This document shows positions 159-42,042 of a DNA stretch of 44,690 nt, piece after piece. Numbering within the stretch: the stretch's first letter is position 1; every line of letters begins with the position of its first letter. The DNA lies in assembly GCA_046539285.1 (NCBI GenBank), contig JBKHHH010000001.1, forward strand, positions 1 to 44,690, given 5' to 3'. Both the position numbers and the translations under genes were made by a program. A model generated the notes under the pieces. The model was not told where the DNA came from. It saw nothing but the letters and a program-made list of their open reading frames with translations, and did not search any database. This DNA comes from Candidatus Aenigmatarchaeota archaeon (GTDB lineage: Archaea > Aenigmatarchaeota > Aenigmatarchaeia > PWEA01).

Positions 159-401
159 TGGCGCCGGCGGCAGGAGTTTCAGAACCTCTCCCGAAAGAGA
201 CGTCCGTGTATTTTCGTGAACGTTTTTGCCGTCTATGGAAGCAGAGCTTCCAAGTGTTGGGAACTTCGTTCCCAAAATAGGCAAAAAGGTTCTTTTGAAC
301 CTGCGTGGGCGGAAGCCCAGTGGATGTCTCGCTGTCATCCTCGCGTCAACACATCCGCGGACTCGAGTCCACCGCCTTAAACCTGACTCGGCCACACCGG
401 C
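159..401 (-). tRNA. tRNA-Ser(CGA) with two introns (36 nt at 37/38, coords 326-361; 118 nt in the T-loop at about 59/60, coords 176-293)
   Basis: Minus strand reads GCCGGTG-TG-GCC-GAGTCAGGTTTAA-GGC-G-GTGGA-CTCGAG[36]A-TCCAC-TGGGCTTCCGCCCAC-GCAGG-TTCAAA[118]T-CCTGC-CGCCGGC-G-CCA. All four stems pair, the long class II variable arm is present, and CCA is encoded. Confidence 0.85.
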
Positions 402-7548: not shown

Positions 7549-7553
7549 TATAG

Positions 7554-8205: not shown

Positions 8206-8213
8206 AACTTCGA

Positions 8214-8301
8214 TGGTGGGCTCGACGGGATTTGAACCCGCGACTCCAAGGTTTCTCCGTAGTTAAGAGCCTTGTGCTCTGCCAGACTGAGCTACGAGCC
8301 C
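8214..8301 (-). tRNA. tRNA-Lys(CTT) with an 11-nt anticodon-loop intron (about 8253-8263), CCA encoded
   Basis: Minus strand reads GGGCTCG-TA-GCTCAGTCTGGCAGAGC-A-CAAGG-CTCTTA[11]A-CCTTG-GAGTC-GCGGG-TTCAAAT-CCCGT-CGAGCCC-A-CCA. Confidence 0.9.
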
Positions 8302-8342
8302 ATATTAGCTATCATTTGGCTGAGAGAAATATAAGTTTTTAC

Positions 8343-8750: not shown

Positions 8751-8756
8751 CTCTAT

Positions 8757-9908
8757 CTAATCACTTTTTTTGTTCGGCTTGAAAATCAAGTCGCACATCC
8801 CCGTGCCTACTGGTACAGTCTGATTAATCAGTACGTTCTCTACTGTCGAATTAAGCTCGTCAACTTCACCGGCTATGGCTGCGTCGGTCAGATTTCTTAC
8901 TGTTACCTCGAAGCTGGCTCTGGCCAGCACGGATCCTTTCTCCCCGGCGATACCGTATCTACCGATTGCCTTTATCTCGCCGTCTACGGTCATAGTATCG
9001 GCGACAAGCATCATATGTCTGATATCGACGTCGAGTCCCTGATCTTCTATTGTATTACTTCCTTCCTTGAGGATGCTGTTTCTTCCTGCTTCGATGCCAA
9101 AGACCTTCATCATCTCCCGTGGGTCACGGCTATAAGTTCGTGTAGCGTCGACACCTTCTATCTTTAATACCTTTTTCAGATTCGTTCCCAGTGTCTGGAT
9201 GTGCCATTCATCGTTTTCTTCCAGGATAACCGCCTGGGAAATTCCCTTTATTCCACAAAGATGTTTGTCCATTACCTTGTTCTTTATTTTTTGCAGGTCT
9301 CGGACGGAGGCATCGTCTTTTTTCGGCTTGACCTTGATGATGTCGTCCTTCACTTCTGCTTCGTGTTTTCTTCTTCCCTTGTTGAGTTGGGAAACGACTT
9401 CTTCTCTGTCCATTCCTATTTCTTCTAGAATTTCATTGTCGAGCTTCAACTCGATAACGAGATTTAGTAAATCTAGGCTATCTTCGTCCACGACGTCTTC
9501 GCACTTGGTTTCCTTTATCTTGTTTGCTATCTCCTTCACGCCTTTTTTTGTCTGGTAGTCTTCTTCTAGGTAGACGTTCATCGTCGGAGTTTTAATTGTT
9601 TTTCTGGCGTCGACGATTTCTATCAATCTCGGTAGTCCCTGGGTAATTTGAACACCTTCCGAACCAGCTATATGATACGTACGCATTGTCATCTGCGTGG
9701 CCGGTTCGGCGATAGACTGAGCTGCGACCACACCCACAGCTTCACCGGGCTCATATTTTAATTGCTTGTATGATTCCTTTGTGTTTTCAATTATCTTTTC
9801 TGCTTTCTTGGCTGTCGGTTCTTCCTTTTCCAGTTTTTCCAATAACCTGTCCAGAACTCTCCGGGGCAGATCTTCTTCCAGTTTCTTTATTTCTTTCTCA
9901 TAATCCAT
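8757..9908 (-). CDS. rpoA2: DNA-directed RNA polymerase subunit A''
   Basis: 383 aa; [25 protein letters not shown] and the C-terminal VPVGTGM are hallmark Rpo1C motifs. Confidence 0.95.
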
Positions 9909-9909
9909 T

Positions 9910-12378: not shown

Positions 12379-12382
12379 TATA

Positions 12383-14179: not shown

Positions 14180-15672
14180 TCTAATCCCTTTATTTCAGTT
14201 TTCAGATTTTTTAGGACTTCTTCTGCTTTGTCTTGTTTCATTCCCGTAGAAATGCTGGCCAGTAGGGCCAGGTATTTTCTCAGACCGATCGTCGGCCCTT
14301 CTGGTGTCTGTGTTGCTCCCAGTCGTCCCCAGTGTGTAGCATGGAGCTCTCTTGCTTCGAAGTGTTCCTGCTGTGTGGACAGGGGCGAAACAACGTTCCT
14401 TAGATGGGAAAGCGTTTTAATATAATTAGTCCTTTCCAGTCTCTGGGAGACACCGGTTCTTCCACCGACCCATAGGCCAGTGGCGAAAGCGGACTGAATC
14501 TGATTGGTTAGCATGTCTGACTCCACGACAGTGTTTACTGTCGGTACCTTGCCTCTCCGGGCGATCTTGTGGTAGTTATACTTTATGCGTGAGATGAGAC
14601 CGACTCTTCCCAGTAGCTTGCTTCTGAGCAGGATCTCAAGCAGGTCGGAGCTAGTTCTCAATCTCTTGTTTCTGTAGTGATCGATGTCGTCCGGATTCAG
14701 CTTTCCGTGTGATATGTATAGCATCTTTTTTGCGGCCCTTCCCAGATAATGGGCCTTCATCATCCTGTCCTCTTTGTCCTGTCCGATATGCGGTAGAAGA
14801 TACTTGTCGATGACTTCTTCTGCCCTCTCCTTTCTGTATTCTTTCTGGGAGACCTTCATCTTCTTTCCGATGAGTTCGAGTGCCTCCTCTGTATCGGACG
14901 CGTCTGTCTCGTATAGATTAGCATAGATTTCTTCCTGATATTCGTCTTCGGGTGTGATCGACTCCACGATTTCTTTGTCCGTCTCCAGACCCAGTCCCCG
15001 GAGGAGAACAACCAGCGGTAGCTTCCTTGCGTTGGCAAAGGATATCGTAATCAATCCGTCTTTGCGCTTGTTAATGGTATGTCTCTGGCCCCAGCCTCTT
15101 CGCTCGGAGTTGATCCGGGCCGCGTATTCGATCTTTTTCTTGTTCTTTTCTTCGACGATGACACGGTTTGGAGCCACCTCTTCCAGGAGAACCAGTACCC
15201 TTTCCGTACCGTTGATGATAAAGTAGCCTCCGACGTCATCCGGGTCCTCTCCGGCCTCGATCAGTTCTTCATCGCTCATGTCGGATAGCGGGCACTTGTC
15301 GGAACGGACCATGATCGGCATTTCACCGATTTTGACGTCCTTCTCTTCCTTGACCTCGCCGTCTCCTTTCGTGGTCATATTAAGAAATATAGGAGCGGCG
15401 TAGCTGATACCCCTCAGCCTTGCTTCCTGTGGTAGTATTTCTCTCAGACTGCCATCTGCCTCCTTGACAGAAGGCTTGCCGACCCTGACTTCACCCAGTT
15501 CGACCTCGAAGTCTCCGAGCCGATCTGATTCTGGTTCTATCGTGCCGATTTCGTCGATAACTTCCTGAATTCTTTCGTTGATAAAGTGGTTGAAGGACTC
15601 GATTTGGTATCTGGCAAATCCCTTCTCTGAGCGGAAGGCTTTCAATAATGTTTCGAATCTACTTTCTTTCAT
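14176..15672 (-). CDS. rpoB2: DNA-directed RNA polymerase subunit B'' (N-terminal half of Rpo2)
   Basis: 498 aa; SFNHFI, GGYFIINGTERV and the LSHLRNVVSP motifs are typical of the Rpo2 N-terminal part. Confidence 0.95.
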   Translation of the reverse strand: MKESRFETLLKAFRSEKGFARYQIESFNHFINERIQEVIDEIGTIEPESDRLGDFEVELGEVRVGKPSVKEADGSLREILPQEARLRGISYAAPIFLNMTTKGDGEVKEEKDVKIGEMPIMVRSDKCPLSDMSDEELIEAGEDPDDVGGYFIINGTERVLVLLEEVAPNRVIVEEKNKKKIEYAARINSERRGWGQRHTINKRKDGLITISFANARKLPLVVLLRGLGLETDKEIVESITPEDEYQEEIYANLYETDASDTEEALELIGKKMKVSQKEYRKERAEEVIDKYLLPHIGQDKEDRMMKAHYLGRAAKKMLYISHGKLNPDDIDHYRNKRLRTSSDLLEILLRSKLLGRVGLISRIKYNYHKIARRGKVPTVNTVVESDMLTNQIQSAFATGLWVGGRTGVSQRLERTNYIKTLSHLRNVVSPLSTQQEHFEARELHATHWGRLGATQTPEGPTIGLRKYLALLASISTGMKQDKAEEVLKNLKTEIKGLE

Positions 15673-15682
15673 GTTTATCGAT

Positions 15683-15925
15683 CTAATCTTTGATTACGAG
15701 CCTGTAGTAGGTGGATTCTTCAGCAGTAGGACTGTTTCGGGTGATCTTCAGCACGTCCCCGACCTTGGCATCTATCTCCTTGACAACAGGATCGTTCTTC
15801 TTGATTTTGGGGAGTTGCTGCGCTTTGATGTCCATTTCCTCCAGGAGCTCTTCTTTTTCCTCAGAAGAAAGGATCTCGTGCTCAGGGACCATTTTGTGCT
15901 CAGTTACCTTGTACTTCTTGGTCAT
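15683..15925 (-). CDS. rpoH: DNA-directed RNA polymerase subunit H
   Basis: 80 aa; [16 protein letters not shown]...[12 protein letters not shown]...[13 protein letters not shown] is the RpoH/Rpb5 C-terminal domain signature. It is the first gene of the rpoH-B-A cluster. Confidence 0.9.
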
Positions 15926-16013
15926 TTATCCACCGATTGGTTCATAGAGACGTCTTGTTTTCGACTTGTTGATTGAGAAGTTTATCATGAACTGGTATTG
16001 TCCTTTATCGATT

Positions 16014-16056: not shown

Positions 16057-16219
16057 TGGGCTCGACGGGATTTGAACCCGCGACTCCTGGGTTTCTTTCC
16101 TCATCGACATATTGTCTTGGTTCTTTCAACCTTAAATATGAAACAGAGTTTCAATTTTGCGAAACCTGTTTCGCAAATAGTTAAAAGCCCAGTGCTCTGC
16201 CAGACTGAGCTACGAGCCC
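16057..16219 (-). tRNA. tRNA-Lys(TTT) with an 89-nt anticodon-loop intron (about 16093-16181), no encoded CCA
   Basis: Minus strand reads GGGCTCG-TA-GCTCAGTCTGGCAGAGC-A-CTGGG-CTTTTA[89]A-CCCAG-GAGTC-GCGGG-TTCAAAT-CCCGT-CGAGCCC-A. Apart from the anticodon arm, the exons are identical to tRNA-Lys(CTT). Confidence 0.9.
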
Positions 16220-16232: not shown

Positions 16233-16308
16233 TGGCGCCGTGACCGGGATTTGAACCCGGGTCAGAGCCTCGACAGGGCTCTATGCTAAGCCACTACACC
16301 ATCACGGC
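16233..16308 (-). tRNA. tRNA-Asp(GTC), intron-less, CCA encoded
   Basis: Minus strand reads GCCGTGA-TG-GTGTAGTGGCTTAGCATA-GAGCC-CTGTCGA-GGCTC-TGAC-CCGGG-TTCAAAT-CCCGG-TCACGGC-G-CCA. Confidence 0.95.
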
Positions 16309-16334: not shown

Positions 16335-16455
16335 GGGGCTGGCAACGTCCTGGATTTCACAGCTTTTCGCTGATACTGTCCAATTCGCTGGAGGACTTTT
16401 CTTCCGTGTTCGGAATGGGTACGGGAGTTGCCCCTCCGCTTTGGTCGCCAGCCTT
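16335..16455 (-). rRNA. rrf: 5S ribosomal RNA (ends approximate within a few nt)
   Basis: The minus strand contains CCCGTACCCATTCCGAACACGGAAG (5S loop B/helix III signature). A terminal helix forms between GGCTGGCGAC and GTTGCCAGCC. Length is about 120 nt. Confidence 0.9.
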
Positions 16456-19303: not shown

Positions 19304-19463
19304 TGGTGCGGGGGGCCGGATTCGAACCGACGAAGGCACTAAGCCACAGGATTTCTTATCATCATCCGCACCGGTAAGGTTCGGACCTCATCACTTAAGT
19401 ATCTAAACTTAAGTCCTGCACCTTTAGTCGTATGATTAACTTTGACCGCTTGGTTACCCCCGC
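19304..19463 (-). tRNA. tRNA-Leu(TAA) with two introns (about 18 nt in the D-loop, about 19423-19440; 55 nt at 37/38, 19353-19407), CCA encoded
   Basis: Minus strand reads GCGGGGG-TA-ACC-AAGCGGTCAAA[18]GGT-G-CAGGA-CTTAAG[55]A-TCCTG-TGGCTTAGTGCCTTC-GTCGG-TTCGAAT-CCGGC-CCCCCGC-A-CCA. The first nucleotide overlaps the rpoD TAG stop. Confidence 0.85.
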
Positions 19464-20242
19464 TACTCTAACTTCTCAACTACTTCATTGCTTTTCCTTT
19501 CTAAAATATCTGTTGTAATCTCCAGTATCTTCTTTGGCGTCAGACCACTGATCGATTCGAGGGAAAGGATGAACTTTTTGTCGTCGCCTTCCACTCCGAT
19601 CGCACCGTCCTTGCAGTTCTCTACACATTCCTTGCAGAGGGTGCAGTTCTCCAGTTCGTCTATCTTTAGTTTTCCGTTCTTTGCTGTAAATACGTTAGCG
19701 GGGCAGATCTCTACGCAGGTCTCTGCGTCGTCTACATTGTCCTGGTCTATAGTTATCTTTGGATAGTATTGATAAGATGTGACTGCGGCCTGATGCTTGC
19801 TGTGATCCTTGCCGGTGCTGACGATGGCCGTCGCTTCCAGTTCTACTTCCTGTCCTTCGTTGAGTTCGGTGATCGGTATCCCGTCATAGACCGGCTCCAC
19901 TGCGGCGCTCTCGCAGACCAGGTCGCCCGAGTAGACTTTGCCCGGACCTTCCTTTTGAAGTGTGAACTTGACCTGGCATTCGGCGCACCCTTCTTCGCAG
20001 TCACATTCTTCCTTCAGATTGTATTTATCGGGATCGAATTTCAGCGGTACCTGGCCCAGTCTCTGGGCCAGCATCTCGTCAAAGAGGGCTGAACCGTTTT
20101 TGTGAATGGCCACATCCTCTATCGCAAGGATAGGAACATGGTTCATAGAGGTTCTTCTTATCGCATTTGCAAAAGCAGGTGTGGATCCTTCGACTGAAAA
20201 CTTCAGTACCTTGTCTTCGTTTTTGATTATGTCTATTTTCAT
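19463..20242 (-). CDS. rpoD: DNA-directed RNA polymerase subunit D (with 4Fe-4S ferredoxin-like insertion)
   Basis: MKIDIIKNEDKVLKFSVEGSTPAFANAIRR matches RpoD N-termini. Cys clusters are CVEICPANVF and CTLCKECVENC. An alternative ATG at 20293 would overlap rps11 by 47 nt. Confidence 0.9.
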   Translation of the reverse strand: MKIDIIKNEDKVLKFSVEGSTPAFANAIRRTSMNHVPILAIEDVAIHKNGSALFDEMLAQRLGQVPLKFDPDKYNLKEECDCEEGCAECQVKFTLQKEGPGKVYSGDLVCESAAVEPVYDGIPITELNEGQEVELEATAIVSTGKDHSKHQAAVTSYQYYPKITIDQDNVDDAETCVEICPANVFTAKNGKLKIDELENCTLCKECVENCKDGAIGVEGDDKKFILSLESISGLTPKKILEITTDILERKSNEVVEKLE

Positions 20243-20246: not shown

Positions 20247-20630
20247 TCAAACTCTCTTGCCTCGTTTTCCACCGGGCTTTCTTGTTGAGTCATGTGGGAT
20301 CGGCGTCACGTCTTCGATCTTGCCGATTCTCATCCCGCTTCGGGCGATGGCCCGGATGGCTGGCTGTGCGCCCTGACCAGGGTTCTTGGAATTATGTCCG
20401 CCTGGTGCCCGGACACGGATATTGACCTTGTTGAAGCCTTTGTCCTTGGCCTCCTGGGCCGCCTTCTTTGCCGCCTGCATGGCGGTGAAAGATGTGCCCT
20501 TGTCCCTGTCTTTATCGGTGACCATCCCACCTGTGTGTCGGCTTATGGTTTCAGCACCCGTTATGTCTGTAATATGAATTATAGTGTTGTTCGAGGACGA
20601 ATAGATGTGGGCGATTCCTGTCTTGCTCAT
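20247..20630 (-). CDS. rps11: 30S ribosomal protein S11 (uS11)
   Basis: [21 protein letters not shown]...[27 protein letters not shown] is the uS11 signature. Confidence 0.95.
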
Positions 20631-21046
20631 CAGTTCTCCACCTCTGTTACCTTTTTATTTACCTCTATTTCGTTTTCCATCTCCTTGGGGACAAGAAAGG
20701 ACGGGGTCTCGATTCTTCTCCCGCCAATTCTCACGTGTCCGTGAACTATAAACTGTCGTGCTTGTTTTGCAGTCTGAACACCACTTAGCTTGGAAACGAC
20801 GGTCTGAAGCCTCCTCTCGAGGATATCTCTCAGCTCGATCTTAAGAACGTTGTCGAGGGATTCCTCGTCTATAAGGCCTAGATTCTTGCATTTCTCGAGT
20901 AGTTTTCCTTTTTCTTCTTCGTCTTCCTCCGCTTCGTCCTCTTCCGCTTGGTCGCCTTCCGCTTCCCTCTCGTCGTCGATGCGCTTTTCGTCCCACGGAA
21001 TCAGTGGTTTTTCGTATTTTTTACGCTGTTTTCTCGGATCTCCCAT
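20630..21046 (-). CDS. rps4: 30S ribosomal protein S4 (uS4), short form with acidic N-terminal insert
   Basis: Has [14 protein letters not shown] and the S4 domain (ERRLQTVV...[20 protein letters not shown]). Residues about 26-46 are poly-acidic. Confidence 0.9.
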
Positions 21047-21513
21047 TATTCTTCACCGCCGCTCTCTTTCTTTACTCTTTTTCTTGATACACCAACCGAA
21101 GATGTACCACGGAAACTTGATTTCGTTTTCTGTCCTCGGACAGGGAGCCCCTGTCTGTGTCTCATACCTCGGTAGGAACCGAGCTTCTTCATCCTGTCGA
21201 TATCCTGTCTGTGCTGGATGTCGAGATCGGTAGTTACCAGCAGCTTGTCTTCACCGTCCTCCGGTCCCTTACGTCTGTTAAGTATTTCGGCCGGAAGATC
21301 GTTGTTTTCGACTACGTTCTTTATCTTATCCAGGTCATCTTCGGAGAGGTCATTGGCTACCGTATCCCCGTCGATACCGGTTTTCTTCAGTATAGCTTTG
21401 ACTGTCGTGAAGCCTATACCCTTGACTTCACAGAGCCCGTTCTTTATCTTCTTGTCTCCGGTAATGTCAGTACCGAAGATCCTGATGATGCTGCTCTTTG
21501 TTTTTGCCATCAT
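21046..21513 (-). CDS. rps13: 30S ribosomal protein S13 (uS13)
   Basis: IRIFGTDITGDKKI...GIGFTTVKAIL...YRGMRHRQGLPVRGQKTK is the uS13 signature. Confidence 0.95.
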   Translation of the reverse strand: MMAKTKSSIIRIFGTDITGDKKIKNGLCEVKGIGFTTVKAILKKTGIDGDTVANDLSEDDLDKIKNVVENNDLPAEILNRRKGPEDGEDKLLVTTDLDIQHRQDIDRMKKLGSYRGMRHRQGLPVRGQKTKSSFRGTSSVGVSRKRVKKESGGEE

Positions 21514-21527: not shown

Positions 21528-21769
21528 TGGCGCCGGGAGAGGGACTTCCAGACCTTTAGATTGCCTAAAGACCCTTTGAACCCCCGTGTGCTTCGCCGCT
21601 GGACATGGTCGTGAGACCAAGCCGTCCTATGACGCACACCGGATCTCTTGTCACGTTTTCATCTACCGGCCGCGCTCTCGCGCTTCAGTATCATTAGATC
21701 CGGTTATTGAAAGGCAGAGCCCTTCAAATCTCAAGTCCGGCGCGTTGGACCTGACTTCGCTATCCCGGC
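21528..21769 (-). tRNA. tRNA-Ser(TGA) with three introns (85 nt at 37/38, 21645-21729; about 37 nt in the variable arm, 21596-21632; 30 nt in the T-loop, 21545-21574), CCA encoded
   Basis: Minus strand reads GCCGGGA-TA-GCG-AAGTCAGGTCCAA-CGC-G-CCGGA-CTTGAG[85]A-TCCGG-TGTGCG[37]CGAAGCACAC-GGGGG-TTCAAA[30]T-CCCTC-TCCCGGC-G-CCA. The exons are near-identical to tRNA-Ser(GGA) at 37082-37219. Confidence 0.85.
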
Positions 21770-22001: not shown

Positions 22002-22961
22002 CTATTTCCAACCCTTCGGATAGGTACCTCGATCCATAATCACGTTTTTCAGTGAAACGGCCTTAGCGTCTTTTCTATCCCTCATTTCCTGGCCGGTCAT
22101 TTCCGCTACACCAATCGCGATCAGTTCTCCTTTCAGGGAGAGAATAGCTATCCGGTCTTCCTCTTCGATGTTTTTTTCGACATGGCAGAGCCCGCCGACT
22201 CCTAGAGGTGCTCCCTGGCAGAGGGACTCCACGGCCGTGTCCTTGACTGTAACTACCTTACAGGCTTCGGCGGTCATTTCCACGGGAAGAATGTCTTTTC
22301 GGATGTCGTCCTTTTTTCCTTCCTTGTAGAATACATAGTCATCCTTGAGGTCGTAGAGCGAAATAGCATCCTCAACGGAAAACGGTCCGATCCTTGTCCT
22401 TCTCAGTTCCTTCATATGGGCGCCTACACCGAGACTTTCGCCCAGGTCGTGGGCCAGTTTTCGTATATAGGTTCCGGCCTCGCAGCTCACTCTGATCAGC
22501 AACTTCTGCCCTTTCCTTTCCAGCAGTTTCAGTTCCTTGACCATTCTTTTTCTTTCCTGGCGCTTGACCGCGGATTTCTTCGGCGGAACCTGTTTTATTT
22601 CGCCACGGAACTCCTCCAGCCTCTCTTCTAGTTTTTCCTTCTCCACCTCTTCGTGAAGATAGATCACGGTTATGTATTCCTTGTCCAGACCCTTTAGGAC
22701 GGGCATTGCCTTGGTCGACTTGTTAAGTGCGATCAGAAGCAGGCCGCTGGTTTTGGGATCCAGAGTTCCGCTGTGACCGGCCTTGTCTATGTTCAGTATT
22801 CTTTTTACCCAGGCCGTTACCTGGTGAGAAGTAGGTCCCGATGGTTTGTCGAGGAGAACAAGACCGCGTTCGATCATCTCCTCCACGGATCTAGCTCCTG
22901 GATATTTACCGTATTGAGGATGAGAAATGTGCTCTGATTTGATAAAGAACTGTCTCTTCAT
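22002..22961 (-). CDS. cbf5: tRNA/rRNA pseudouridine synthase Cbf5 (TruB family + PUA domain)
   Basis: LLDKPSGPTSHQVTAWVKRIL...AGHSGTLDPKTSGLL is the TruB catalytic motif, with a C-terminal PUA-like region. The ATG at 22961 forms an ATGA overlap with the upstream gene. Confidence 0.9.
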   Translation of the reverse strand: MKRQFFIKSEHISHPQYGKYPGARSVEEMIERGLVLLDKPSGPTSHQVTAWVKRILNIDKAGHSGTLDPKTSGLLLIALNKSTKAMPVLKGLDKEYITVIYLHEEVEKEKLEERLEEFRGEIKQVPPKKSAVKRQERKRMVKELKLLERKGQKLLIRVSCEAGTYIRKLAHDLGESLGVGAHMKELRRTRIGPFSVEDAISLYDLKDDYVFYKEGKKDDIRKDILPVEMTAEACKVVTVKDTAVESLCQGAPLGVGGLCHVEKNIEEEDRIAILSLKGELIAIGVAEMTGQEMRDRKDAKAVSLKNVIMDRGTYPKGWK

Positions 22962-23596
22962 TGAACGACTCCCAGTAGTTTTCTGAAAACCTGTCCTGAA
23001 GCCAGTGCGATCAAGATGTACCAACCGAGCCAACCGAGACTGTTTCCGACCATCGGCAGTGAAAATGGAAGCATAACTGCTATTCTTTCTAGCTTAAGAA
23101 TTTTATCTTCCTCGTTGTAGTCACCTACCTCCAACTTCCAACTTTCCGTCTTGACGATATCACCTCTTTCATACTCCTTGCCGTCTATATTTACTCTAAC
23201 AGGACTTTCGTCCTCTAGTGTGGTCGGCAGTTCAGTTCCTTTATAGGACAGTGTATTGTTCTGATTGAAGTTAACCGTTGCCGGTGGGTACAGATTCGGG
23301 AATACGAACCAGAAAAGAGGTATGATCACGATGAAGGTTATTGCCATCGGTTTCAGCTGCATCTTCATCTGCTTTGACGAGTGCTTCATCATCTCGCTCA
23401 TATGTTCGTTGGCCTTGTCGTGTTTGCCGTCTTCCCTGGCCTTTTCTGCCTTCTCCTTCAGTTCGTCCATGTTTTCTTTGATCTTTTTGGCCCGTTTCTC
23501 GTCGGTAAAGACCTTGTAGATGGCAGAAATAACGAAGCTGATGGCCAGGGCTAATATTGCTACGCCGCAGACCGCGTCGGAAAATATGGCCAACAT
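22958..23596 (-). CDS. DUF106-type membrane protein (archaeal YidC/Oxa1/EMC3-like insertase family) with inserted soluble segment
   Basis: Has a TM helix, a K/E-rich coiled coil (EKRAKKIKENMDELKEKAEKA), MKMQLKPM, and two further TM helices. It sits in the conserved position just downstream of secY. An extra segment of about 75 aa lies between the last two helices. Confidence 0.7.
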   Translation of the reverse strand: MLAIFSDAVCGVAILALAISFVISAIYKVFTDEKRAKKIKENMDELKEKAEKAREDGKHDKANEHMSEMMKHSSKQMKMQLKPMAITFIVIIPLFWFVFPNLYPPATVNFNQNNTLSYKGTELPTTLEDESPVRVNIDGKEYERGDIVKTESWKLEVGDYNEEDKILKLERIAVMLPFSLPMVGNSLGWLGWYILIALASGQVFRKLLGVVQ

Positions 23597-23631: not shown

Positions 23632-25047
23632 CTAGCTGCCCATGAACTTGCGCAGGGCAGGGTGCATGTCCTCCATGTGTTGCTGGGCCAGGTCTTCGTA
23701 TAGGTTGTAGATGATCATCGCTGCAAGGAGGATGCTGGTTCCGGAAGCGACGGATCCGAAGAAATCTGCAAAGATCGAAAGCAGTCCGATAAAGGCCCCG
23801 GAGAGTACGGCCAAGTAAGGAATGTATCTGTCGAGAATCCTTCTGATTATCCTTATATCTCTGCGGTAACCAGGCACGGAGAGTCCCATGTTGTGAATCC
23901 TTTCCGCTACAGTTTGCGAGTCCTGGCCCGAGGTTTTGGACCAGAAGACAGAAAAGATTACTGCTCCTATCACTATGGTTAGGGTGTACGGTATCCAGGC
24001 CCAGGTAAGTGACGGTGGTGTGGCACCGGTTAGGTGGCTGACAATCGTCTGGGAGAGAACACCTTGTCGTGGTGCCGTTACGGAGGGACTATATATCCAG
24101 TACATCAGGCCTGATGTCGGCTCGCCCTGTTGACTGAACTGTCCGAGGAGCGGCAGTCCTCTACGGGCCAGCATCTGACCCATGATATTCAGGTTAGCCA
24201 GGAAGGCCCGGACAAAAATCAGAGGAATTACACTTGTATAGAGGAAACGTAGCGGATAACGCTGTCCAAATCCTTTCACCTGTCCGAAGGCGAGCGGTAT
24301 CTCTACCTTCATCGAGTTGATATAGACAACAACAGCAAAGATTATGACTGTAAATATGACAGGTATCAGAACTGTGATCATGCCCATCAGGTCACCCTGG
24401 ATCAAAGTTTGGAATATCTGGAGTATGTAGCCTGCCGATGTCTCACCGGCTACGGGTAGACTTCCACCGGCCGTGAAGGGGTTGAATAGCTGCTGGACGA
24501 TCTGCATCGAGACGCCTCCGGCGATAAAGAGTGAAACGCCTGAACCGAAGCCCCACTTTGATATTATCTCGTCCATAAATACGATCAGTATACCACCGAG
24601 CGCGATCTGGATCATCATTGCCGGGGCAGCCAGAGACAGTCCGGCCTGAGCCGGGATCGCACCAAAGGAAACATAGGCTGTGGCCTGGACTATACAGAAG
24701 GTTATGGCCAGGAGCTTTTGGGTACCCATGAATTTCATCTTTCCCTCGTGGGTGTGTGTATCCCACTGCAGAATATCGCTTCCTATCAATAGTTGGAGGA
24801 TAATGGAACCGGTTACAATAGGACCGATACCTAGAGTAACAAGAGAACCGAATCTTGAGGCAAGAATCGTCTGAAGGAACTGGAATCTCTCCAGGCCCTG
24901 TGGCGAAACACCCCAGACCGTGATCTGACCCATTATAAAGTATATGATTAGAATAGTAGCCGTCCACTTCAGTTTGTCCTTGAAATTAAGCCTCTTCTCC
25001 GGCTCTTCGATACCCGGGATAAACTGGAGTAGATCAAGATATTTCAA
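23632..25047 (-). CDS. secY: Preprotein translocase subunit SecY
   Basis: 471 aa, about 10 TM segments, LASRFGSLVTLGIGPIVTGSIILQLL, in the conserved position after L15. The only in-frame start is the TTG at 25047, overlapping rpl15 by 14 nt. Confidence 0.95.
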   Translation of the reverse strand: MKYLDLLQFIPGIEEPEKRLNFKDKLKWTATILIIYFIMGQITVWGVSPQGLERFQFLQTILASRFGSLVTLGIGPIVTGSIILQLLIGSDILQWDTHTHEGKMKFMGTQKLLAITFCIVQATAYVSFGAIPAQAGLSLAAPAMMIQIALGGILIVFMDEIISKWGFGSGVSLFIAGGVSMQIVQQLFNPFTAGGSLPVAGETSAGYILQIFQTLIQGDLMGMITVLIPVIFTVIIFAVVVYINSMKVEIPLAFGQVKGFGQRYPLRFLYTSVIPLIFVRAFLANLNIMGQMLARRGLPLLGQFSQQGEPTSGLMYWIYSPSVTAPRQGVLSQTIVSHLTGATPPSLTWAWIPYTLTIVIGAVIFSVFWSKTSGQDSQTVAERIHNMGLSVPGYRRDIRIIRRILDRYIPYLAVLSGAFIGLLSIFADFFGSVASGTSILLAAMIIYNLYEDLAQQHMEDMHPALRKFMGS

Positions 25048-35888: not shown

Positions 35889-36839
35889 CTACTGTCCACT
35901 TGTCTTTATTTCTTTAATTTCGATCGGTATTTTCTTACCGTCTTTAACAGATTTTCTGACCATAACCAGTCTCTTCTTCGGTCCCGGGACACTGCCCTTG
36001 ACCATCAAGTAGTTCTCCTTGACGAGACCGTAGTTGCTGAAGCCACCCGAGGGGTTGACTTCTTCTCCTTCACCGAACTTGAGGACCCTCTTCTTTTCGT
36101 CCGTCCTTCGATGGAACCCGTCCTGTCCAGGTTGCGGTACTGAGAAACGTACACGTCCATCGCCTCTTGCGCCGAGGCTGCCGACATGCCTTCTTTCTTC
36201 GTCCTTTCTGGTCTTGATCTTGGTTCCGTATCTCTTTGTGGTCCCCTGATAGCCCTTGCCTTTAGTGATAGCAACGGCGTCGGAGAACTCGCCTTCTTCG
36301 AAGACGTCTTCTACTGTTATATCCTCGCCGAGTTTCTCCTCGATATAATCTTTCTGTTCTTCAAAACTTCCGCCCAGAGGCAGTTCGAATACTTCCGGTT
36401 CTTTCTTGCCCACTCCGCTGCGCTTCGGCTGTGTAGATACAATTAATCTTACAAGGTCAGCCTCTTCTTCCAGATTGTCCTTTCCGGCGAAGCTGACTTT
36501 CTCCCGGATATCCTTCGGGATTTTTTCTTCCGGGGCCCCGACCTCTTCCACAAGCTCTAAACCGTCCTCGGTCTTGCGGTAAGAACGGGCGCCGATGATA
36601 AAGAGAGGAGGAGTGTCAATTATTGTTACAGGAACAGAAATGAACTGGTTTTTTGTCGGAGAATTTTGTCGTGTGTCTTTCATCATTACCTGGGTCATAC
36701 CGGCCTTATAGCCGGCGAAAAGAACAGGTTTGCACTCGCCTGTTTCTGGGTAAGTGGTGACCGAAGGATAGGTGCGACTAACCCGTTTCCGGGGCCATGA
36801 TCCTAGCGATCCGCTTCGTGGTTTGTGGAATTCAGGCAT
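35889..36839 (-). CDS. rpl3: 50S ribosomal protein L3 (uL3)
   Basis: HKPRSGSLGSWPRKR...FAGYKAGMT...ITKGKGYQGTTKRYG is the uL3 signature. Confidence 0.95.
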   Translation of the reverse strand: MPEFHKPRSGSLGSWPRKRVSRTYPSVTTYPETGECKPVLFAGYKAGMTQVMMKDTRQNSPTKNQFISVPVTIIDTPPLFIIGARSYRKTEDGLELVEEVGAPEEKIPKDIREKVSFAGKDNLEEEADLVRLIVSTQPKRSGVGKKEPEVFELPLGGSFEEQKDYIEEKLGEDITVEDVFEEGEFSDAVAITKGKGYQGTTKRYGTKIKTRKDEERRHVGSLGARGDGRVRFSVPQPGQDGFHRRTDEKKRVLKFGEGEEVNPSGGFSNYGLVKENYLMVKGSVPGPKKRLVMVRKSVKDGKKIPIEIKEIKTSGQ

Positions 36840-37081: not shown

Positions 37082-37219
37082 TGGCGCTGGGGGAGGGATT
37101 TGAACCCCCGCGTGCTTCGCCGCTGGACGTGGTCGGAGACCACGTCTTTCTATGACGCACACCAGCTATTTGGTCAAGTCTCCAAGCTGGCGCGTTGGAC
37201 CAGACTTCGCTACCCCAGC
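37082..37219 (-). tRNA. tRNA-Ser(GGA) with two introns (12 nt in the anticodon loop, about 37168-37179; about 36 nt in the variable arm, about 37120-37155), CCA encoded
   Basis: Minus strand reads GCTGGGG-TA-GCG-AAGTCTGGTCCAA-CGC-G-CCAGC-TTGGAG[12]A-GCTGG-TGTGCG[36]CGAAGCACGC-GGGGG-TTCAAAT-CCCTC-CCCCAGC-G-CCA. Confidence 0.85.
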
Positions 37220-37266
37220 ATCTAAAGATGAATAAGCTTCTAAGTTTTTAAGTATTCAGAATGAGT

Positions 37267-37590
37267 TCAGTCTTCTAGCTCAATTTCGATGTTGACTTCT
37301 TCCGGTATGTCGATGCCCATAATTCTGCGCAGGGCCCGTTTGTTGGCTTCCATTTCGATAAGTCTTTTGTGTATCCTCATCTCGTAGTGTTCCCAGGTCG
37401 CGTTGCCGTGACCAGTTCCCTGGCCGGACGGCGTCTTCATGACAGGAACCTTGAGCTTCTTGGTTGGCAGGGGAATCGGTCCGGAGAGGGCTACACCGTA
37501 CTTCTCGGCTATATCTTTGACTCTATCACAGATGCCCTCAAGAGCTTCGTGTTTCTTTCCTGTCAGTTTTATCTTGGCTTTGCCTGCCAT
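37267..37590 (-). CDS. rps10: 30S ribosomal protein S10 (uS10)
   Basis: KIKLTGKKHEALEGICDRV...GPIPLPTKKLKVPVMKTP...YEMRIHKRLIE is the uS10 signature. Confidence 0.95.
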   Translation of the reverse strand: MAGKAKIKLTGKKHEALEGICDRVKDIAEKYGVALSGPIPLPTKKLKVPVMKTPSGQGTGHGNATWEHYEMRIHKRLIEMEANKRALRRIMGIDIPEEVNIEIELED

Positions 37591-37689: not shown

Positions 37690-38958
37690 TCAGGCCTCTT
37701 CTGTTACTTCGATGCAGATACCTGCAGCCACAGTTTTGCCCATGTCCCTGATCGCGAACCTACTCAGTTCGGGGAAGTCCTTGTTGCTCTCAACTGCCAT
37801 CGGTTTGGTTGGCTTGATCTTGACGATTGCCGAGTCTCCTGTCTTCAGATAGTCAGGATTCTCTTCAAGCGTCTCACCGGACTTTGAATCGATCTTCTTC
37901 TCAAGTTCTACGAACTTGGAAGCAGTCTGCGCTGTGTTGCAGTGGAAGACCGGTGTGTAGCCTTTGGCGATGACGTTCGGATGCTTCAAGACGATAATCT
38001 GAGCTCTGAACTCCTTGGCAACGGTGACAGGATTGTCCGGGTGACATGCGACGTCTCCCTTTCTGATGTCGTCCTTGCCAATACCTCTGACGTTGAATCC
38101 GATGTTGTCACCGGCTTCGGCTTCGTCGATCTCTTCGTGATGCATCTCGATGGATTTGACTTCACCGTCTGCGTCAGATGGTAGGAATTTGATAGCATCG
38201 CCTTTCTTGATCCGACCTGTTTCCACTCTTCCTACCGGAACTGTACCTACACCCGTAATGGAATAGGCGTCCTGGATAGGAACTCTGAGCGGTTTGTCAA
38301 CAGGTTTTGTCGGAGCTTCTAGATCGTCAAGAGCTTCGTAGATGCTGATACCATCATACCAGTCCGTGTTACCCTGCGGTTCCTTGATGTTGTCACCGTA
38401 GTAAGCGGATGTCGGTATGAATGGAATCTCATCGGGTTTGAAACCGATGCTCTTGAGGACCTTGGTGACTTCTTTCTTCACGTCGTTGAACTTGTCTTCT
38501 GAGTAGTCGATTGTGTCCATCTTGTTGATGGCAACGATTACCTCGTCGACACCAAGTACCTTTGCCAAGTATGTGTGCTCTTTGGTTTGAGCCTGAACAC
38601 CGTCCTTGGCTGAAACTACCAGTAGGGCAGCGTCAGCCTGAGATGCTCCGGTTATCATGTTCTTGACAAAGTCTCGATGGCCTGGTGCGTCGATCACTGT
38701 GAAATAGTAGTTGTCTGTGTCGAAACGTTTGTGAGCAATGTCGATTGTCACACCACGTTCCCTTTCTTCCTTCAGGTTGTCCATAGCGAAAGCAAACTCG
38801 AAAGTCTCCTTTCCAGCTTCCTTTGCTGCGTCCTTCAGTTTCCTGTACTCTGTGTCGGGTAGATTGTCTGTGTCGTAAAGAAGTCTACCGATCAGCGTTG
38901 ACTTCCCATGGTCTACATGTCCTAATGTGACCAGGTTCATGTGTGGTTTGTCTGCCAT
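37690..38958 (-). CDS. tuf: Elongation factor 1-alpha (aEF-1alpha)
   Basis: 422 aa with G motifs [14 protein letters not shown] and NKMD. GGAGGTG lies upstream of the ATG. Confidence 0.97.
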
Positions 38959-39855: not shown

Positions 39856-42042
39856 TCAGAACTCTGGGCTCGGAATCTCGTCCTTGAGACCCTTCCTCTG
39901 TCGGATCTGCATCACGGTTTCTTCTCTCAAGTTCTGGGGAAGCTCTTCGAAGATGACGTCCTTCAGATAGTAGAATCCTTTACCGGCCGTGGCTGATTTC
40001 AGTTCTCCTTCAAAGCCAAACATTTCTGCAACTGGTAGTTTTGAGATCAGAATTGTTGCTCCCTGTTCCGACTTGACGTCGATCACTTCACCTCTCCGGT
40101 TCTGGACCTCGCTCATGGCTCCGCCCATGTGTTCCTCGGGCGTCTGAATTCTCAGTAACTGTTTCGGCTCGAGCAAAGTAGCTCCGGAAGACAGGATCGC
40201 GTTCTTGAGTGCGGCGCGAACGGCAGGGTTGACCTGTGCCGGTCCACGGTGAATGGCGTCTTCGTGAAGCTTTGCATCGACCAGTCTAATCAGCACCTTG
40301 GAACATGGTTCGCGGCAGAGCGGTCCTTCGTCGATTATACTCTCGACTGCCTCACGGACCAAGTCTATCGTATCGTTTAGATACTGGATACCACGTGTCG
40401 CATCTGTAAAGACACTCTTCTCTTTGATCAGCTCGACACCTTCCGCGTCATCGTCTTCCATGCCCAGATCCTTTAGTTTGTTGGACAGGTCCGAGTTCTT
40501 GCCCTTGTATTCATCTTCCTTTATCTTGTCGTCCACAATCGCTTGGTATACTTCGTCGGGCAGAGACTCGACCTCAAAGTAGAACTTGTTATGTTTATTC
40601 GGGCTTTTGCCCTCTATTTCACCACTTTTCTGAGTTACGGTTTCCCTGTAAACTACAATGGGTGGCGAGGTTTCAATATCAATATCCTTCTCCTTGAGAC
40701 CCTGTTCGACCTTGGCCTGGATATGCAGTTCTCCCAGGCCCGAGACCAGCTGTTCTCCTGTCTCTTCGTCGATCTCCACCTTCAGTGTCGGGTCCTCCCG
40801 GCTCTTGGCCCGTAGGAACTCGATAACCTTTGGTAGGTCTTTGGTGTTCTTGGCTTCGATGGCCTTGGTTACGACCGGTTCAAATACATGCTTTATTTCC
40901 TCGAAGGGCTGCATCTTGTGGTTTTTGTCGCAGATCGTCTCGCCGGAGAAAGCGTCGGGAACTCCAACAAGGCCGATAATGTTACCGGCTCTGACCTCGT
41001 CCATCGGAACCCTTTCCTGGCCTTTGTAAACGCAGACCTGCTGGATTCTCTCGTCTCTGTGCTGCCCTACCAGGTGAACTTCCTGCCCTTCTTTCAGATT
41101 GCCGGAAAAGATTCTACCGGTAGCGACGGATCCTGCATGGGGATCGTCGTAGACCTTGGTTGTGATCGCGGCCAGCTTGCCGTTGCTGTTACAAGATTTC
41201 ATATCCTCTCCGACTTCCGAATCAGTATCTCCGGGCCAGATCTTTGGAATTCTATAATCCTGGGCTGTGACTGGATCGGGTAGATGTCTAATTATAGCGT
41301 TAAGTACAATCTTATGTAGCGGAGCCTTCTTCCAGAGTTCCTTGTCCTTTCCTTCCTTACATAGACTGTTTATGTCCTTGAAGTTGATGCCGGTTTCCTT
41401 CATGTAAGGTACGGATATCGCCCAGTTCTTGAGGGCTGAACCGAACATCACTTCGCCGTCGTCGACTGATACGGTCCATTTTTTGTAGTCGTCTTCGGCG
41501 TATTTCTTGATCAACTGGTTGACCTCGGCGATGATCTTCATGAACTTTTCCTGCATCTCCTCCGGTCCCAGCTCCAGTTCGTTGATCAGTCTATCGACTT
41601 TGTTGATAAAGAGAACCGGTTTGACCCTTTCCTTGAGAGCCTGTTGCAGAACCGTCTCGGTCTGCGGCATCACACCCTCGACTGCACAGGCCAGAACTAT
41701 AACACCGTCTACAGCCCGCATTGCACGGGTCACGTCGCCACCGAAGTCGACATGGCCTGGCGTATCGATAAGGTTTATCAGGTAGTCGTCTCCGTTGAAT
41801 TCATGAACCATGGAGACGTTAGCCGAGTAGATCGTAATACCTCTCTCCTGTTCCTGGTCGTCGTAATCCATGAAGAGCTGTTCACCGGCCAGTTCGTCGG
41901 AAATCATACCGGCTCCGGCCAGCAGGTTGTCAGAAAGTGTCGTCTTGCCGTGATCGATATGGGCGACTGTGCCGATATTCCGGATCCTATCCTGGGTTTC
42001 CATCAAATTTTTTACTCTTTCGTTCAATCTCTCTTTTGCCAT
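39856..42042 (-). CDS. fusA: Elongation factor 2 (aEF-2)
   Basis: 728 aa with AHIDHGKTT, DTPGH and NKVD G motifs, and the diphthamide-site motif HEDAIHRGPAQ. Confidence 0.97.
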   Translation of the reverse strand: MAKERLNERVKNLMETQDRIRNIGTVAHIDHGKTTLSDNLLAGAGMISDELAGEQLFMDYDDQEQERGITIYSANVSMVHEFNGDDYLINLIDTPGHVDFGGDVTRAMRAVDGVIVLACAVEGVMPQTETVLQQALKERVKPVLFINKVDRLINELELGPEEMQEKFMKIIAEVNQLIKKYAEDDYKKWTVSVDDGEVMFGSALKNWAISVPYMKETGINFKDINSLCKEGKDKELWKKAPLHKIVLNAIIRHLPDPVTAQDYRIPKIWPGDTDSEVGEDMKSCNSNGKLAAITTKVYDDPHAGSVATGRIFSGNLKEGQEVHLVGQHRDERIQQVCVYKGQERVPMDEVRAGNIIGLVGVPDAFSGETICDKNHKMQPFEEIKHVFEPVVTKAIEAKNTKDLPKVIEFLRAKSREDPTLKVEIDEETGEQLVSGLGELHIQAKVEQGLKEKDIDIETSPPIVVYRETVTQKSGEIEGKSPNKHNKFYFEVESLPDEVYQAIVDDKIKEDEYKGKNSDLSNKLKDLGMEDDDAEGVELIKEKSVFTDATRGIQYLNDTIDLVREAVESIIDEGPLCREPCSKVLIRLVDAKLHEDAIHRGPAQVNPAVRAALKNAILSSGATLLEPKQLLRIQTPEEHMGGAMSEVQNRRGEVIDVKSEQGATILISKLPVAEMFGFEGELKSATAGKGFYYLKDVIFEELPQNLREETVMQIRQRKGLKDEIPSPEF

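What the first reader, a model, noticed from the sequence alone, without database searches (positions are those of the whole stretch)
37082..37219. Homologous variable-arm introns in two different tRNA-Ser isoacceptors, with compensatory changes
tRNA-Ser(GGA) here and tRNA-Ser(UGA) at 21528-21769 both have their variable arm split at the same point (TGTGCG | CGAAGCAC). The inserts are clearly related: TCATAGAAAGACGTGGTCTCCGACCACGTCCAGCGG versus TCATAGGACGGCTTGGTCTCACGACCATGTCCAGCGG. The flanks TCATAG...CCAGCGG are conserved. The central hairpin (GACGTGGTC/GACCACGTC versus GGCTTGGTC/GACCATGTCC) differs while keeping most pairing. tRNA-Ser(CGA) has an uninterrupted variable arm (TGGGCTTCCGCCCAC). 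This points either to intron inheritance through isoacceptor duplication or to intron transposition between paralogous tRNAs, with selection on intron structure.
Basis: seen in the sequence. Interest (0 to 1): 0.65.

Follow-up and report, generated by a model that had tools for sequence, protein, structure and literature searches.

The report
Copied variable-arm intron in serine tRNAs
Two serine tRNA genes of an uncultured salt-loving DPANN archaeon carry related protein-spliced introns in the loop of their long variable arm, and relatives indicate that one gene copied the intron plus five neighbouring exon bases from the other, a clear but not fundamentally new case of archaeal tRNA intron spread.

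Summary
The quoted sequences are all present at the stated coordinates. The two inserts (36 and 37 nt) match at 30 of 37 aligned positions and have identical flanks.

[quoted passage not shown] The organism is an Aenigmatarchaeota-like DPANN archaeon from hypersaline mats.

The BHB register gives ...GTGCGTCAT|A...GGCGAA|GCAC. Splicing two relatives' introns by that rule reproduces, base for base, the intron-less variable arm of the closest relative.

The two window copies show no compensatory change: one A-U to G.U change and one G-C to U.U break. Across orthologues, covariation is strong in the 4-bp BHB helix and in the inner hairpin.

The GGA intron occurs in seven of nine distinct orthologues. 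The two lineages nearest the window lack an intron in UGA and have a different loop; more distant ones carry unrelated 16-29 nt mini-introns at the same site. The best reading is that the window lineage copied loop plus intron from GGA into UGA at the DNA level.

Splicing is inferred, because no RNA data exist. This is a new member of a known kind: non-canonical BHB introns and intron "transposition". It counters a 2015 statement that class II tRNAs have no translocatable introns.

The parts
37082..37219 (-). tRNA-Ser(GGA) gene, 138 nt, with encoded CCA. It has three exons (37219-37180, 37167-37152, 37115-37082) and two introns.
   Evidence: Rfam tRNA model scores 43.1 bits. Reading of the sequence. 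The spliced 90-nt product is called tRNA-Ser(gga) by ARAGORN. ARAGORN misses the unspliced gene.
37116..37151 (-). Variable-arm-loop BHB intron of tRNA-Ser(GGA), 36 nt: AGAAAGACGTGGTCTCCGACCACGTCCAGCGGCGAA. The motif reads: outer helix (U)GUG/CAC(G); 3' bulge AAG; 4-bp helix CGUC (exon) / GGCG (intron); 5' bulge AUA; closing G-C pair.
   Evidence: Sequence. BHB core is 98.9% paired across 13 sequences, with double changes at 3 of 7 pairs. Splicing L029 and L161 by the same rule reproduces the intron-less L027 arm.
37126..37146 (-). Inner 9-bp hairpin of the intron, the h' helix: GACGUGGUC-UCC-GACCACGUC.
   Evidence: Present in the minimum-free-energy fold. Five of 9 pairs show compensatory double changes among 6 homologues.
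37168..37179 (-). Canonical 37/38 intron of tRNA-Ser(GGA), 12 nt: ACTTGACCAAAT. Helix UUGG/CCAA; bulges AG|A and AU|A.
   Evidence: Sequence. Its removal is needed for the ARAGORN call. Conserved in L027 and L001.
21528..21769 (-). tRNA-Ser(UGA) gene, 242 nt, with encoded CCA. It has four exons (21769-21730, 21644-21629, 21591-21575, 21544-21528) and three introns.
   Evidence: Sequence. Missed by ARAGORN and by Rfam at both thresholds. The spliced 90-nt product is called tRNA-Ser(tga). The same gene is found in two other assemblies, L153 and L154.
21592..21628 (-). Variable-arm-loop BHB intron of tRNA-Ser(UGA), 37 nt: AGGACGGCTTGGTCTCACGACCATGTCCAGCGGCGAA. The BHB core and the exon loop GTCAT are identical to the GGA gene. 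The hairpin is degraded, with one G.U pair and one U.U mismatch.
   Evidence: Absent from the orthologues L152 and L155. Retained in a 96.5%-identical strain in a brine metagenome.
21645..21729 (-). Canonical 37/38 intron of tRNA-Ser(UGA), 85 nt. Helix CUUG/CAAG; bulges AG|A and AG|A.
   Evidence: Sequence. Its removal is needed for the ARAGORN call.
21545..21574 (-). T-loop 59/60 intron of tRNA-Ser(UGA), 30 nt: GGGTCTTTAGGCAATCTAAAGGTCTGGAAG. Helix UUCA/UGGA; bulges AA|G and AG|U.
   Evidence: Sequence. 29 of 30 nt identical in L152. Position 59/60 is a documented non-canonical site (PMC4090602).
159..401 (-). tRNA-Ser(CGA), the comparison gene. Its variable arm is uninterrupted (305-319). 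It has a canonical intron and a T-loop intron of about 130 nt.
   Evidence: Parsed by eye; not validated by splicing in silico.

Best explanation
Both inserts are archaeal bulge-helix-bulge (BHB) introns in the loop of the long variable arm of two class II tRNA-Ser genes. The host is a halophilic Aenigmatarchaeota-like DPANN archaeon.

Proposed pre-tRNA structure:
- The last four exon bases before the splice site (CGUC) pair with the intron's GGCG, forming the 4-bp central helix.
- That helix is flanked by two 3-nt bulges, AUA and AAG.
- The outer helix is the variable-arm stem.
- A 9-bp intron hairpin lies behind a closing G-C pair.

Proposed processing (inferred, not shown): the splicing endonuclease cuts after the second base of each bulge, and RtcB-type ligation gives a normal 16-nt variable arm, U GUGC GUCAU GCAC RC (R = G in the GGA gene, A in the UGA gene).

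Proposed history (inferred from comparison):
- The GGA intron is old and mostly vertically inherited.
- The UGA gene of the window lineage had an intron-less arm, GTGC-ATTMC-GCAC.
- It later received a 42-nt patch from the GGA paralogue: the 5 loop bases GTCAT plus the intron.
- The exon bases that pair with the intron travelled with it. This points to a DNA-level copy, meaning short-patch gene conversion between near-identical flanks, rather than reverse splicing of the intron alone.
- Since then the BHB core has stayed identical while the hairpin of the UGA copy has drifted.
For: Intron status:
- Removing the inserts gives 90-nt sequences that ARAGORN calls tRNA-Ser(gga) and tRNA-Ser(tga). 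With the insert retained, nothing is called.
- The cuts predicted by the 3-4-3 rule match the way the canonical and T-loop introns of the same genes parse.
- L161 spliced by this rule gives TGTGCCTTGTGCACAC, identical at 16 of 16 positions to the intron-less variable arm of L027, the closest relative (EF-1a 92%). L029 spliced matches at 14 of 14 positions of the stem and loop.

Structure:
- BHB core: 13 sequences with columns fixed by distance from the anticodon stem and the T stem. 98.9% of cells are paired and 3 of 7 pairs have double changes (C-G/G-C/A-U; G-C/U-A). The covariation score is 0.599, against 0.226 in shuffles (0 of 500 reach it) and at most 0.115 in slid controls.
- Hairpin: 6 homologues, 94.4% paired, 5 of 9 pairs with double changes, 0 of 500 shuffles reach the score.

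History:
- The GGA gene has the intron in the window, L029, L161, L001, L160, L046/L163, L062, L084 and L142. It lacks it in L027 and L157.
- UGA orthologues:
  - L152 has V-arm TGTGCATTACGCACAC and L155 has TGTGCATTCCGCACAC, both without an intron.
  - L029, L001, L086, L091, L115, L126, L138 and L159 have unrelated 16-29 nt introns at the same site.
- S13 tree: (window, L152) 100% bootstrap; adding L155, 96%.
- Outside the V loop, the mature exons of window UGA and L152 UGA are identical, and the T-loop intron matches at 29 of 30.

Precedent and host machinery:
- Similar introns in different tRNAs are taken as intron transposition in Thermoproteales, with the mechanism unknown (PMC4090602; PMC4033280).
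- DPANN archaea are known to have disrupted tRNAs and endonucleases with a specificity loop (PMC5829648).
- A relative encodes RtcB and archease.
Against: - No RNA evidence is available: no RNA run holds the gene, so excision is inferred.
- No splicing endonuclease gene lies among the window ORFs checked: the 10 largest in 400-16,000 by Pfam and the ribosomal-protein and elongation-factor ORFs read.
- In isolation, the nearest-neighbour model puts the 3-4-3 BHB conformer 6-7 kcal/mol above the minimum-free-energy fold of the arm. That fold uses a slipped register.
- The flanking homology available for conversion is short: 7 nt on the 5' side, and 17 nt with one mismatch on the 3' side.
- The two copies differ at 7 of 37 positions, so the transfer is not very recent.
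- The history of the GGA copy is itself unclear. The intron-less L027 and L157 share loop CTYGT with the intron-bearing L029 and L161, whereas the window loop GTCAT and its hairpin resemble the more distant L001.
- L027 and L152 come from one sample, but it is not proven that they come from one genome.
- Only the window is available, not the whole genome, so a third donor gene such as tRNA-Ser(GCU) cannot be excluded.
Confidence: 0.62

Rival explanations
1. Shared ancestry. The same intron was in the common ancestor of the two isoacceptors, or entered both long ago. It was inherited vertically in both and later lost from UGA in the L152 and L155 lineages.
For: An intron sits at exactly the same variable-loop position in both GGA and UGA genes across the wider clade. 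An old presence in both isoacceptors is therefore real.
Against: - UGA introns in all other lineages are 16-29 nt and unrelated in sequence to the GGA type. They use a different helix (CCGU/GCGG against CGUC/GGCG) and a different V stem (GGGC against GUGC).
- L152 and L155 have loops ATTAC and ATTCC, not the GTCAT that precise loss of a window-type intron would leave.
- Two separate losses, each followed by convergent loop change, would be required on the S13 tree.
Confidence: 0.12
2. Third-party donor. Both window cassettes, or at least the UGA one, came from another source. That source could be another tRNA-Ser gene outside the window, or a co-resident related lineage, by lateral transfer and recombination.
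For: - The variable region of the window GGA gene is most like that of L001 (81%), although its tRNA body is closer to L027, L029 and L161.
- An L001-like organism is about 25 times more abundant in the same mat metagenomes.
- The intron-less L027 and L157 share loop CTYGT, so one early loss followed by regain scores the same number of events as two losses.
- The hairpin module also appears in the 5' leaders of tRNA-Ser genes in L155 and L001, which shows that it moves.
Against: - The closest known sequence to the UGA cassette is the window's own GGA cassette: the intron matches at 30 of 37, and the 5 loop bases, both bulges and helix B are identical.
- The canonical intron of L001 is also conserved with the window's, so the similarity to L001 may simply reflect slow change.
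- There are no hits to the hairpin in viral contigs.
Confidence: 0.18
3. Not an intron. The insert stays in the mature tRNA as an exceptionally long variable arm of 52-53 nt.
For: No RNA data exclude it. The insert folds into a stable extension of the arm.
Against: - The closest relative has a precise deletion, equal to the predicted spliced product.
- Insert length varies from 0 to 42 nt across orthologues, while the predicted mature arm stays at 16 nt.
- Exon-intron covariation maintains a 3-4-3 BHB.
- The same genes carry other BHB introns.
- ARAGORN cannot model the retained form as a tRNA.
Confidence: 0.04

Closest known systems
Non-canonical bulge-helix-bulge tRNA introns of Archaea. Multiple-intron tRNAs are reported for Thermoproteales, Thaumarchaeota, Nanoarchaeota and ARMAN, and the documented positions include 45/46 and 59/60 (Marck & Grosjean 2003 and Sugahara 2008, as reviewed in PMC4090602).
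   Same: The hBHBh' architecture is the same: two 3-nt bulges separated by 4 bp. The motif is built partly from exon and partly from intron. Up to three introns occur per gene. The T-loop 59/60 position is shared. Standard tRNA finders miss these genes.
   Different: The host is a halophilic Aenigmatarchaeota-like DPANN lineage. The intron lies in the loop of the long variable arm of class II tRNA-Ser. In the papers I could read, I found no description of that exact site in class II tRNAs.
[quoted passage not shown] 2010, Mol Biol Evol 27:2233; cited in PMC4090602, PMC4033280 and PMC4390854).
   Same: Near-identical introns sit at the same position in different tRNA genes of one genome, while orthologues elsewhere lack them. 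The BHB core is conserved and the interior is free to drift.
   Different: - Only two genes are involved here, and both are serine isoacceptors with almost identical flanks.
- The five exon loop bases moved together with the intron, which argues for short-patch gene conversion.
- PMC4390854 (2015) states that no translocatable intron is known in class II tRNAs. This would be a counter-example.
Intron gain and tRNA gene disruption seen in a natural Caldiarchaeum subterraneum population (PMC3293823).
   Same: Metagenomic comparison of close relatives shows presence or absence of an intron at a fixed tRNA site.
   Different: That model invokes integration of a mobile genetic element. No such element is seen here, and the donor appears to be a paralogous tRNA gene.

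Membership tests
Archaeal BHB (endonuclease-spliced) tRNA intron | Removing the insert restores a canonical tRNA cloverleaf | tested here: met
   ARAGORN calls the spliced 90-nt products tRNA-Ser(gga) and tRNA-Ser(tga). It calls nothing when the insert is retained.
Archaeal BHB (endonuclease-spliced) tRNA intron | Splice sites lie in two 3-nt bulges on opposite strands, separated by a 4-bp helix and flanked by helices (hBHBh') | tested here: met
   Sequence reading: GUG | CGUC | AUA | G ... C | GGCG | AAG | CAC. Across 13 sequences 98.9% of cells are paired, with covariation score 0.599 against 0.226 in shuffles. Caveat: this is not the minimum-free-energy conformer in isolation.
Archaeal BHB (endonuclease-spliced) tRNA intron | The predicted junction agrees with intron-less alleles | tested here: met
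   Spliced L161 equals the variable arm of L027 at 16 of 16 positions. Spliced L029 equals it at 14 of 14 positions of stem and loop.
Archaeal BHB (endonuclease-spliced) tRNA intron | Excision in vivo, or cleavage by EndA and ligation by RtcB | not testable with these tools
   No RNA run holds the gene. No endonuclease gene is among the window ORFs checked. RtcB and archease are present in relative L028.
Transposed or translocatable tRNA introns (sensu Fujishima 2010) | Highly similar intron sequences in different tRNA genes of one genome, at the same position | tested here: met
   The introns match at 30 of 37 positions, with identical BHB core and identical position. Only these two copies are found in the window.
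Transposed or translocatable tRNA introns (sensu Fujishima 2010) | The recipient's orthologues in sister lineages lack the intron, indicating gain rather than shared ancestry | tested here: met
   UGA genes of L152 and L155 lack it. Tree support is 100% and 96%. The sample is only two sister lineages.
Transposed or translocatable tRNA introns (sensu Fujishima 2010) | Spread among tRNAs of different amino-acid identity | tested here: not met
   The intron is seen only in the two serine isoacceptors. The tRNA-Ser(CGA), tRNA-Leu-like, Lys and Asp genes of the window have no related insert.
Class II tRNA with an unusually long, retained variable arm | The long arm is present and conserved in length among orthologues | tested here: not met
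   Insert length ranges from 0 to 42 nt among orthologues, while the predicted mature arm stays at 16 nt.

The most novel reading that the evidence does not exclude
The variable-loop cassette, or at least its GAYGURGUC...GACYACRUC hairpin module, may be a small mobile unit specific to tRNA-Ser genes in this DPANN clade. It would move between isoacceptors, and between the variable-arm intron and the 5' leader. In L155/L156 the leader is 24 of 25 identical to the L160 intron interior. It might also move between co-resident lineages. Transfer would be by DNA-level patches that carry the exon bases needed to rebuild the BHB. This would be the first translocatable intron in class II tRNAs, and it would give a concrete handle on the still-unknown mechanism of archaeal tRNA intron transposition.
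Probability: 0.3. Interest if true: 0.65.

Novelty: new member of a known kind. Interest (0 to 1): 0.45.

Why it matters
- The mechanism of archaeal tRNA intron gain is acknowledged as unknown (PMC4090602). This case is unusually well resolved. The donor, the recipient, the intron-less sister alleles and the exact boundaries of the copied patch are all visible. The patch includes the five exon bases that pair with the intron, which favours DNA-level conversion over reverse splicing.
- It counters the published remark that class II tRNAs lack translocatable introns (PMC4390854).
- Practically, standard tools missed most tRNA genes in this window. ARAGORN found 2 of 7, and Rfam at its gathering threshold found 4 of 7. 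DPANN genome annotations that report 'missing' tRNA-Ser genes may simply be failing on multi-intron genes.

Tried and rejected
- **Genome scan for the cassette.** A scan of species-representative genomes for GGTGTGCGTCATN{22,36}GGCGAAGCAC gave 0 hits. The lineage is not represented there with identical flanks.
- **Metagenome scan.** The D-arm pattern returned mostly unrelated intron-less soil tRNA-Ser(UGA) genes. Only about 15 of 120 loci were useful.
- **L028** (EF-1a 86%) ends at EF-1a, so it holds no tRNA. **L158** ends 31 nt into the tRNA.
- **RNA evidence.** No RNA runs are available.
- **Population polymorphism.** Contigs of four metagenomes were laid on both genes. They showed only other lineages (an L001-like GGA gene, the intron-less L027 allele) and one 96.5%-identical strain that keeps the UGA intron. 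The window population itself showed no intron-less allele.
- **Slipped register.** I considered a register with a GAA bulge and a 3-bp helix, as in the minimum-free-energy fold. I rejected it because it breaks the 4-bp spacing and predicts a junction 1 nt longer than the intron-less alleles.
- **Lateral origin of the GGA cassette from an L001-like lineage.** The identities by region are suggestive but not decisive.
- **Viral or mobile-element origin of the hairpin.** There were 0 hits in viral contigs.
- **Loosened hairpin motif.** It is not enriched over shuffles: 9 observed against a mean of 6.6. Only the strict motif is specific to tRNA-Ser genes.
- **In-silico splicing of the tRNA at 19307-19463.** A brute-force attempt was ambiguous.

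Full report
**Where the window comes from**

The window is an archaeal ribosomal-protein and RNA-polymerase super-operon on the minus strand. Gene positions are listed below.

| Gene | Coordinates |
|---|---|
| EF-2 | 39856-42042 |
| EF-1a | 37690-38958 |
| S10 | 37267-37590 |
| L3 | 35889-36839 |
| SecY | 23632-25047 |
| Cbf5 | 22002-23033 |
| S13 | 21046-21513 |
| RNA polymerase subunits | 8757-15672 |

The best named EF-1a hits are Candidatus Aenigmatarchaeota genomes assembled from metagenomes. Runs that hold the sequence are hypersaline microbial-mat, lake and brine metagenomes. tRNA-Ser(GGA) lies between S10 and L3. tRNA-Ser(UGA) lies just upstream of S13. Both positions are syntenic in relatives.

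**Checking the observation**

- The GGA gene is 37219..37082 (138 nt) and the UGA gene is 21769..21528 (242 nt).
- The pattern that joins the two inserts has exactly 2 matches, against none in 100 shuffles.
- tRNA-Ser(CGA), at 401..159, has the uninterrupted arm at 305-319.
- ARAGORN finds neither interrupted gene. Rfam finds only the GGA gene.

**What the inserts are**

I parsed all introns of the two genes with one rule: a 4-bp helix between two 3-nt bulges, with the cut after the second bulge base. The results are consistent.

| Gene | Intron site | Length | Central helix |
|---|---|---|---|
| GGA | canonical 37/38 | 12 nt | UUGG/CCAA |
| GGA | variable-arm loop | 36 nt | CGUC/GGCG |
| UGA | canonical 37/38 | 85 nt | CUUG/CAAG |
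| UGA | variable-arm loop | 37 nt | CGUC/GGCG |
| UGA | T-loop 59/60 | 30 nt | UUCA/UGGA |

The variable-arm motif reads GUG | CGUC | AUA | G ... hairpin ... C | GGCG | AAG | CAC. Removing the introns gives 90-nt sequences that ARAGORN calls tRNA-Ser(gga) and tRNA-Ser(tga). With the variable-arm insert retained, nothing is called.

**Where the splice point is**

Relatives do decide.
- The closest relative, L027 (EF-1a 92%), has an intron-less GGA gene with arm TGTGCCTTGTGCACAC.
- L029 and L161 carry the intron as GTG CCTT GTA ... GAGG AAG CAC.
- Cutting those by the BHB rule gives TGTGCCTTGT|GCAC. For L161 this equals the whole L027 arm, 16 of 16 positions.
- A slipped register, as seen in the minimum-free-energy fold, would be 1 nt too long.

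**Covariation**

Between the two window copies there is no compensatory change.
- Pair 2 of the hairpin goes from A-U to G.U.
- Pair 4 goes from G-C to U.U.
- The loop gains one base.

Across orthologues the picture is different.
- For the BHB core I took the 11 nt after the anticodon stem and the 12 nt before the T stem from 13 distinct genes, with no gaps placed.
  - 98.9% of cells pair.
  - Three of 7 pairs have double changes.
  - The covariation score is 0.599 against 0.226 in shuffles (0 of 500 reach it), and slid controls reach at most 0.115.
- For the 9-bp hairpin, 6 homologues give 94.4% pairing and double changes at 5 of 9 pairs.

Selection on structure is therefore real.

**History**

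*Trees.*
- A neighbour-joining tree of EF-1a, S10 and EF-2 gives three groups:
  - clade A: (window, L027) at 100% bootstrap, joined by L028;
  - clade B: (L157, L158);
  - clade C: L029, L062, L046, L084 and L001.
- An S13 tree gives (window, L152) at 100%, joined by L155 at 96%.

*GGA genes.* The intron is present in the window, in all clade C members, and in L160 and L161. It is absent from L027 and L157.

*UGA genes.*

| Lineage(s) | Variable arm | Intron at the site |
|---|---|---|
| L152 | GTGC-ATTAC-GCAC | none |
| L155 | GTGC-ATTCC-GCAC | none |
| L029, L001, L086, L091, L115, L126, L138, L159 | GGGC stem; helices such as CCGU/GCGG or CAGU/ACUG | 16-29 nt mini-introns |
| window | GTGC-GTCAT-GCAC | 37 nt, GGA type |

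*The window UGA gene.*
- Its mature exons are identical to those of L152 except for the five loop bases.
- The loop is GTCAT, followed by an intron that matches the window's GGA intron at 30 of 37 positions.
- The bulges and the central helix are identical to the GGA gene.

*Most economical reading.* A 42-nt patch, loop plus intron, was copied from the GGA gene into the UGA gene. This happened after the window lineage split from the L152 lineage, between the shared flanks GGTGTGC and GCAC(N)CGGGGGTTCAAA. Two loop bases (AU) are unpaired bulge bases that vary freely among orthologues. Their identity in the two window copies argues that the exon bases were co-transferred rather than re-evolved. 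That favours a DNA-level event.

*Independent support.* A strain 96.5% identical over 255 nt, found in a brine metagenome, also keeps the UGA intron. Its hairpin pair 2 is A-U, the GGA state.

**Open points**

- Splicing is inferred. No RNA data exist.
- The BHB conformer is not the minimum-free-energy fold of the isolated arm.
- The GGA history is not clean. The intron-less L027 and L157 share loop CTYGT with the intron-bearing L029 and L161. The window's cassette is closest to that of L001 (81%), a lineage that is about 25 times more abundant in the same mats.
  - Two losses, or one loss plus a regain, score the same number of events.
  - A third donor cannot be excluded without the full genome.

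**Something unexpected**

The intron's hairpin module also occurs in the 5' leaders of tRNA-Ser genes.
- In L155/L156 it sits 9 nt upstream of tRNA-Ser(UGA). It is 24 of 25 identical to the interior of the L160 GGA intron (E = 7e-6 in 1.25 Mb).
- In L001 it occurs upstream of both serine genes.
- In 232 kb of clade loci, the strict motif occurs only at tRNA-Ser genes.

I have no explanation for this.

**Comparison with what is known**

- Non-canonical BHB introns, genes with up to three introns, and positions 45/46 and 59/60 are all established (PMC4090602).
- Similar introns in different tRNAs were read as large-scale transposition in Thermoproteales, with an unknown mechanism.
- DPANN archaea are known to carry disrupted tRNAs that prediction tools miss (PMC5829648).
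- A 2015 review states that class II tRNAs have no translocatable intron (PMC4390854). This case contradicts that statement.

The finding is therefore a new member of a known kind. It is useful mainly as a cleanly resolved example that bears on the mechanism, and as a warning for tRNA annotation in DPANN genomes.

Noticed in passing
L155 59-83 (also L156 41-65); L001 1980-2000 and about 19500-19516: The hairpin of the variable-arm intron (GAYGTRGTC-loop-GACYACRTC) also sits in the 5' leader just upstream of tRNA-Ser genes in relatives. The L155 leader is 24 of 25 identical to the L160 GGA intron interior (E = 7e-6). The strict motif occurs only at tRNA-Ser genes in 232 kb of clade loci.
   Followed up: partly
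window 159-401 (-): tRNA-Ser(CGA) has a canonical intron and a T-loop intron of about 130 nt at the same 59/60 position as tRNA-Ser(UGA). Its variable arm is intact. Neither ARAGORN nor Rfam finds this gene.
   Followed up: partly
window 19307-19463 (-): A class II tRNA, most likely tRNA-Leu(UAA). It appears to have an insert of about 18 nt in the D loop and a 54-nt canonical intron containing GTGATGA and TGATGA box-like motifs. Its variable arm is uninterrupted. Rfam scores it 34.8 bits with the permissive (E-value) search only. My in-silico splicing was ambiguous.
   Followed up: partly
window 16057-16219 (-): A tRNA with anticodon loop CUUUUAA, which looks like tRNA-Lys(UUU), has an insert of about 90 nt after the anticodon. 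It lies next to tRNA-Asp (16233-16308) and 5S rRNA (16337-16452).
   Followed up: no
window 21645-21729 (-) and orthologous introns in L152, L001, L086, L115 and L126: The long canonical intron of tRNA-Ser(UGA) keeps a conserved block, CCGGATCT(N)TGA ... GGATGA/AGATGA. ACCGGATCT is complementary to the AGATCCGGT that spans the 3' splice junction. Possible C/D-box-like motifs were not analysed.
   Followed up: no
L028 1429-4763: In a relative (EF-1a 86%), an RtcB RNA ligase gene interrupted by an intein sits next to an archease gene, upstream of the S12/S7/EF-2 operon.
   Followed up: no
window 37151-37226 as covered by runs X1 and X2: A different, L001-like lineage carrying its own tRNA-Ser(GGA) variable-arm intron is present in the same mat metagenomes at about 200x word depth. 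The window organism is at about 8x.
   Followed up: partly
L143 (-836), L094, L106, L151, L085, L127: Other uncultured archaeal tRNA-Ser genes pulled in by the D-arm pattern carry long inserts in the T arm or in other variable-arm registers. L143 has an insert of roughly 35-40 nt in its variable arm that I could not fit to the same BHB register.
   Followed up: no
window 20463-20490 (-): A weak, sub-threshold Rfam CRISPR-DR4 match (24.8 bits, E = 0.35) lies inside the S11 coding region. It is most likely chance.
   Followed up: no
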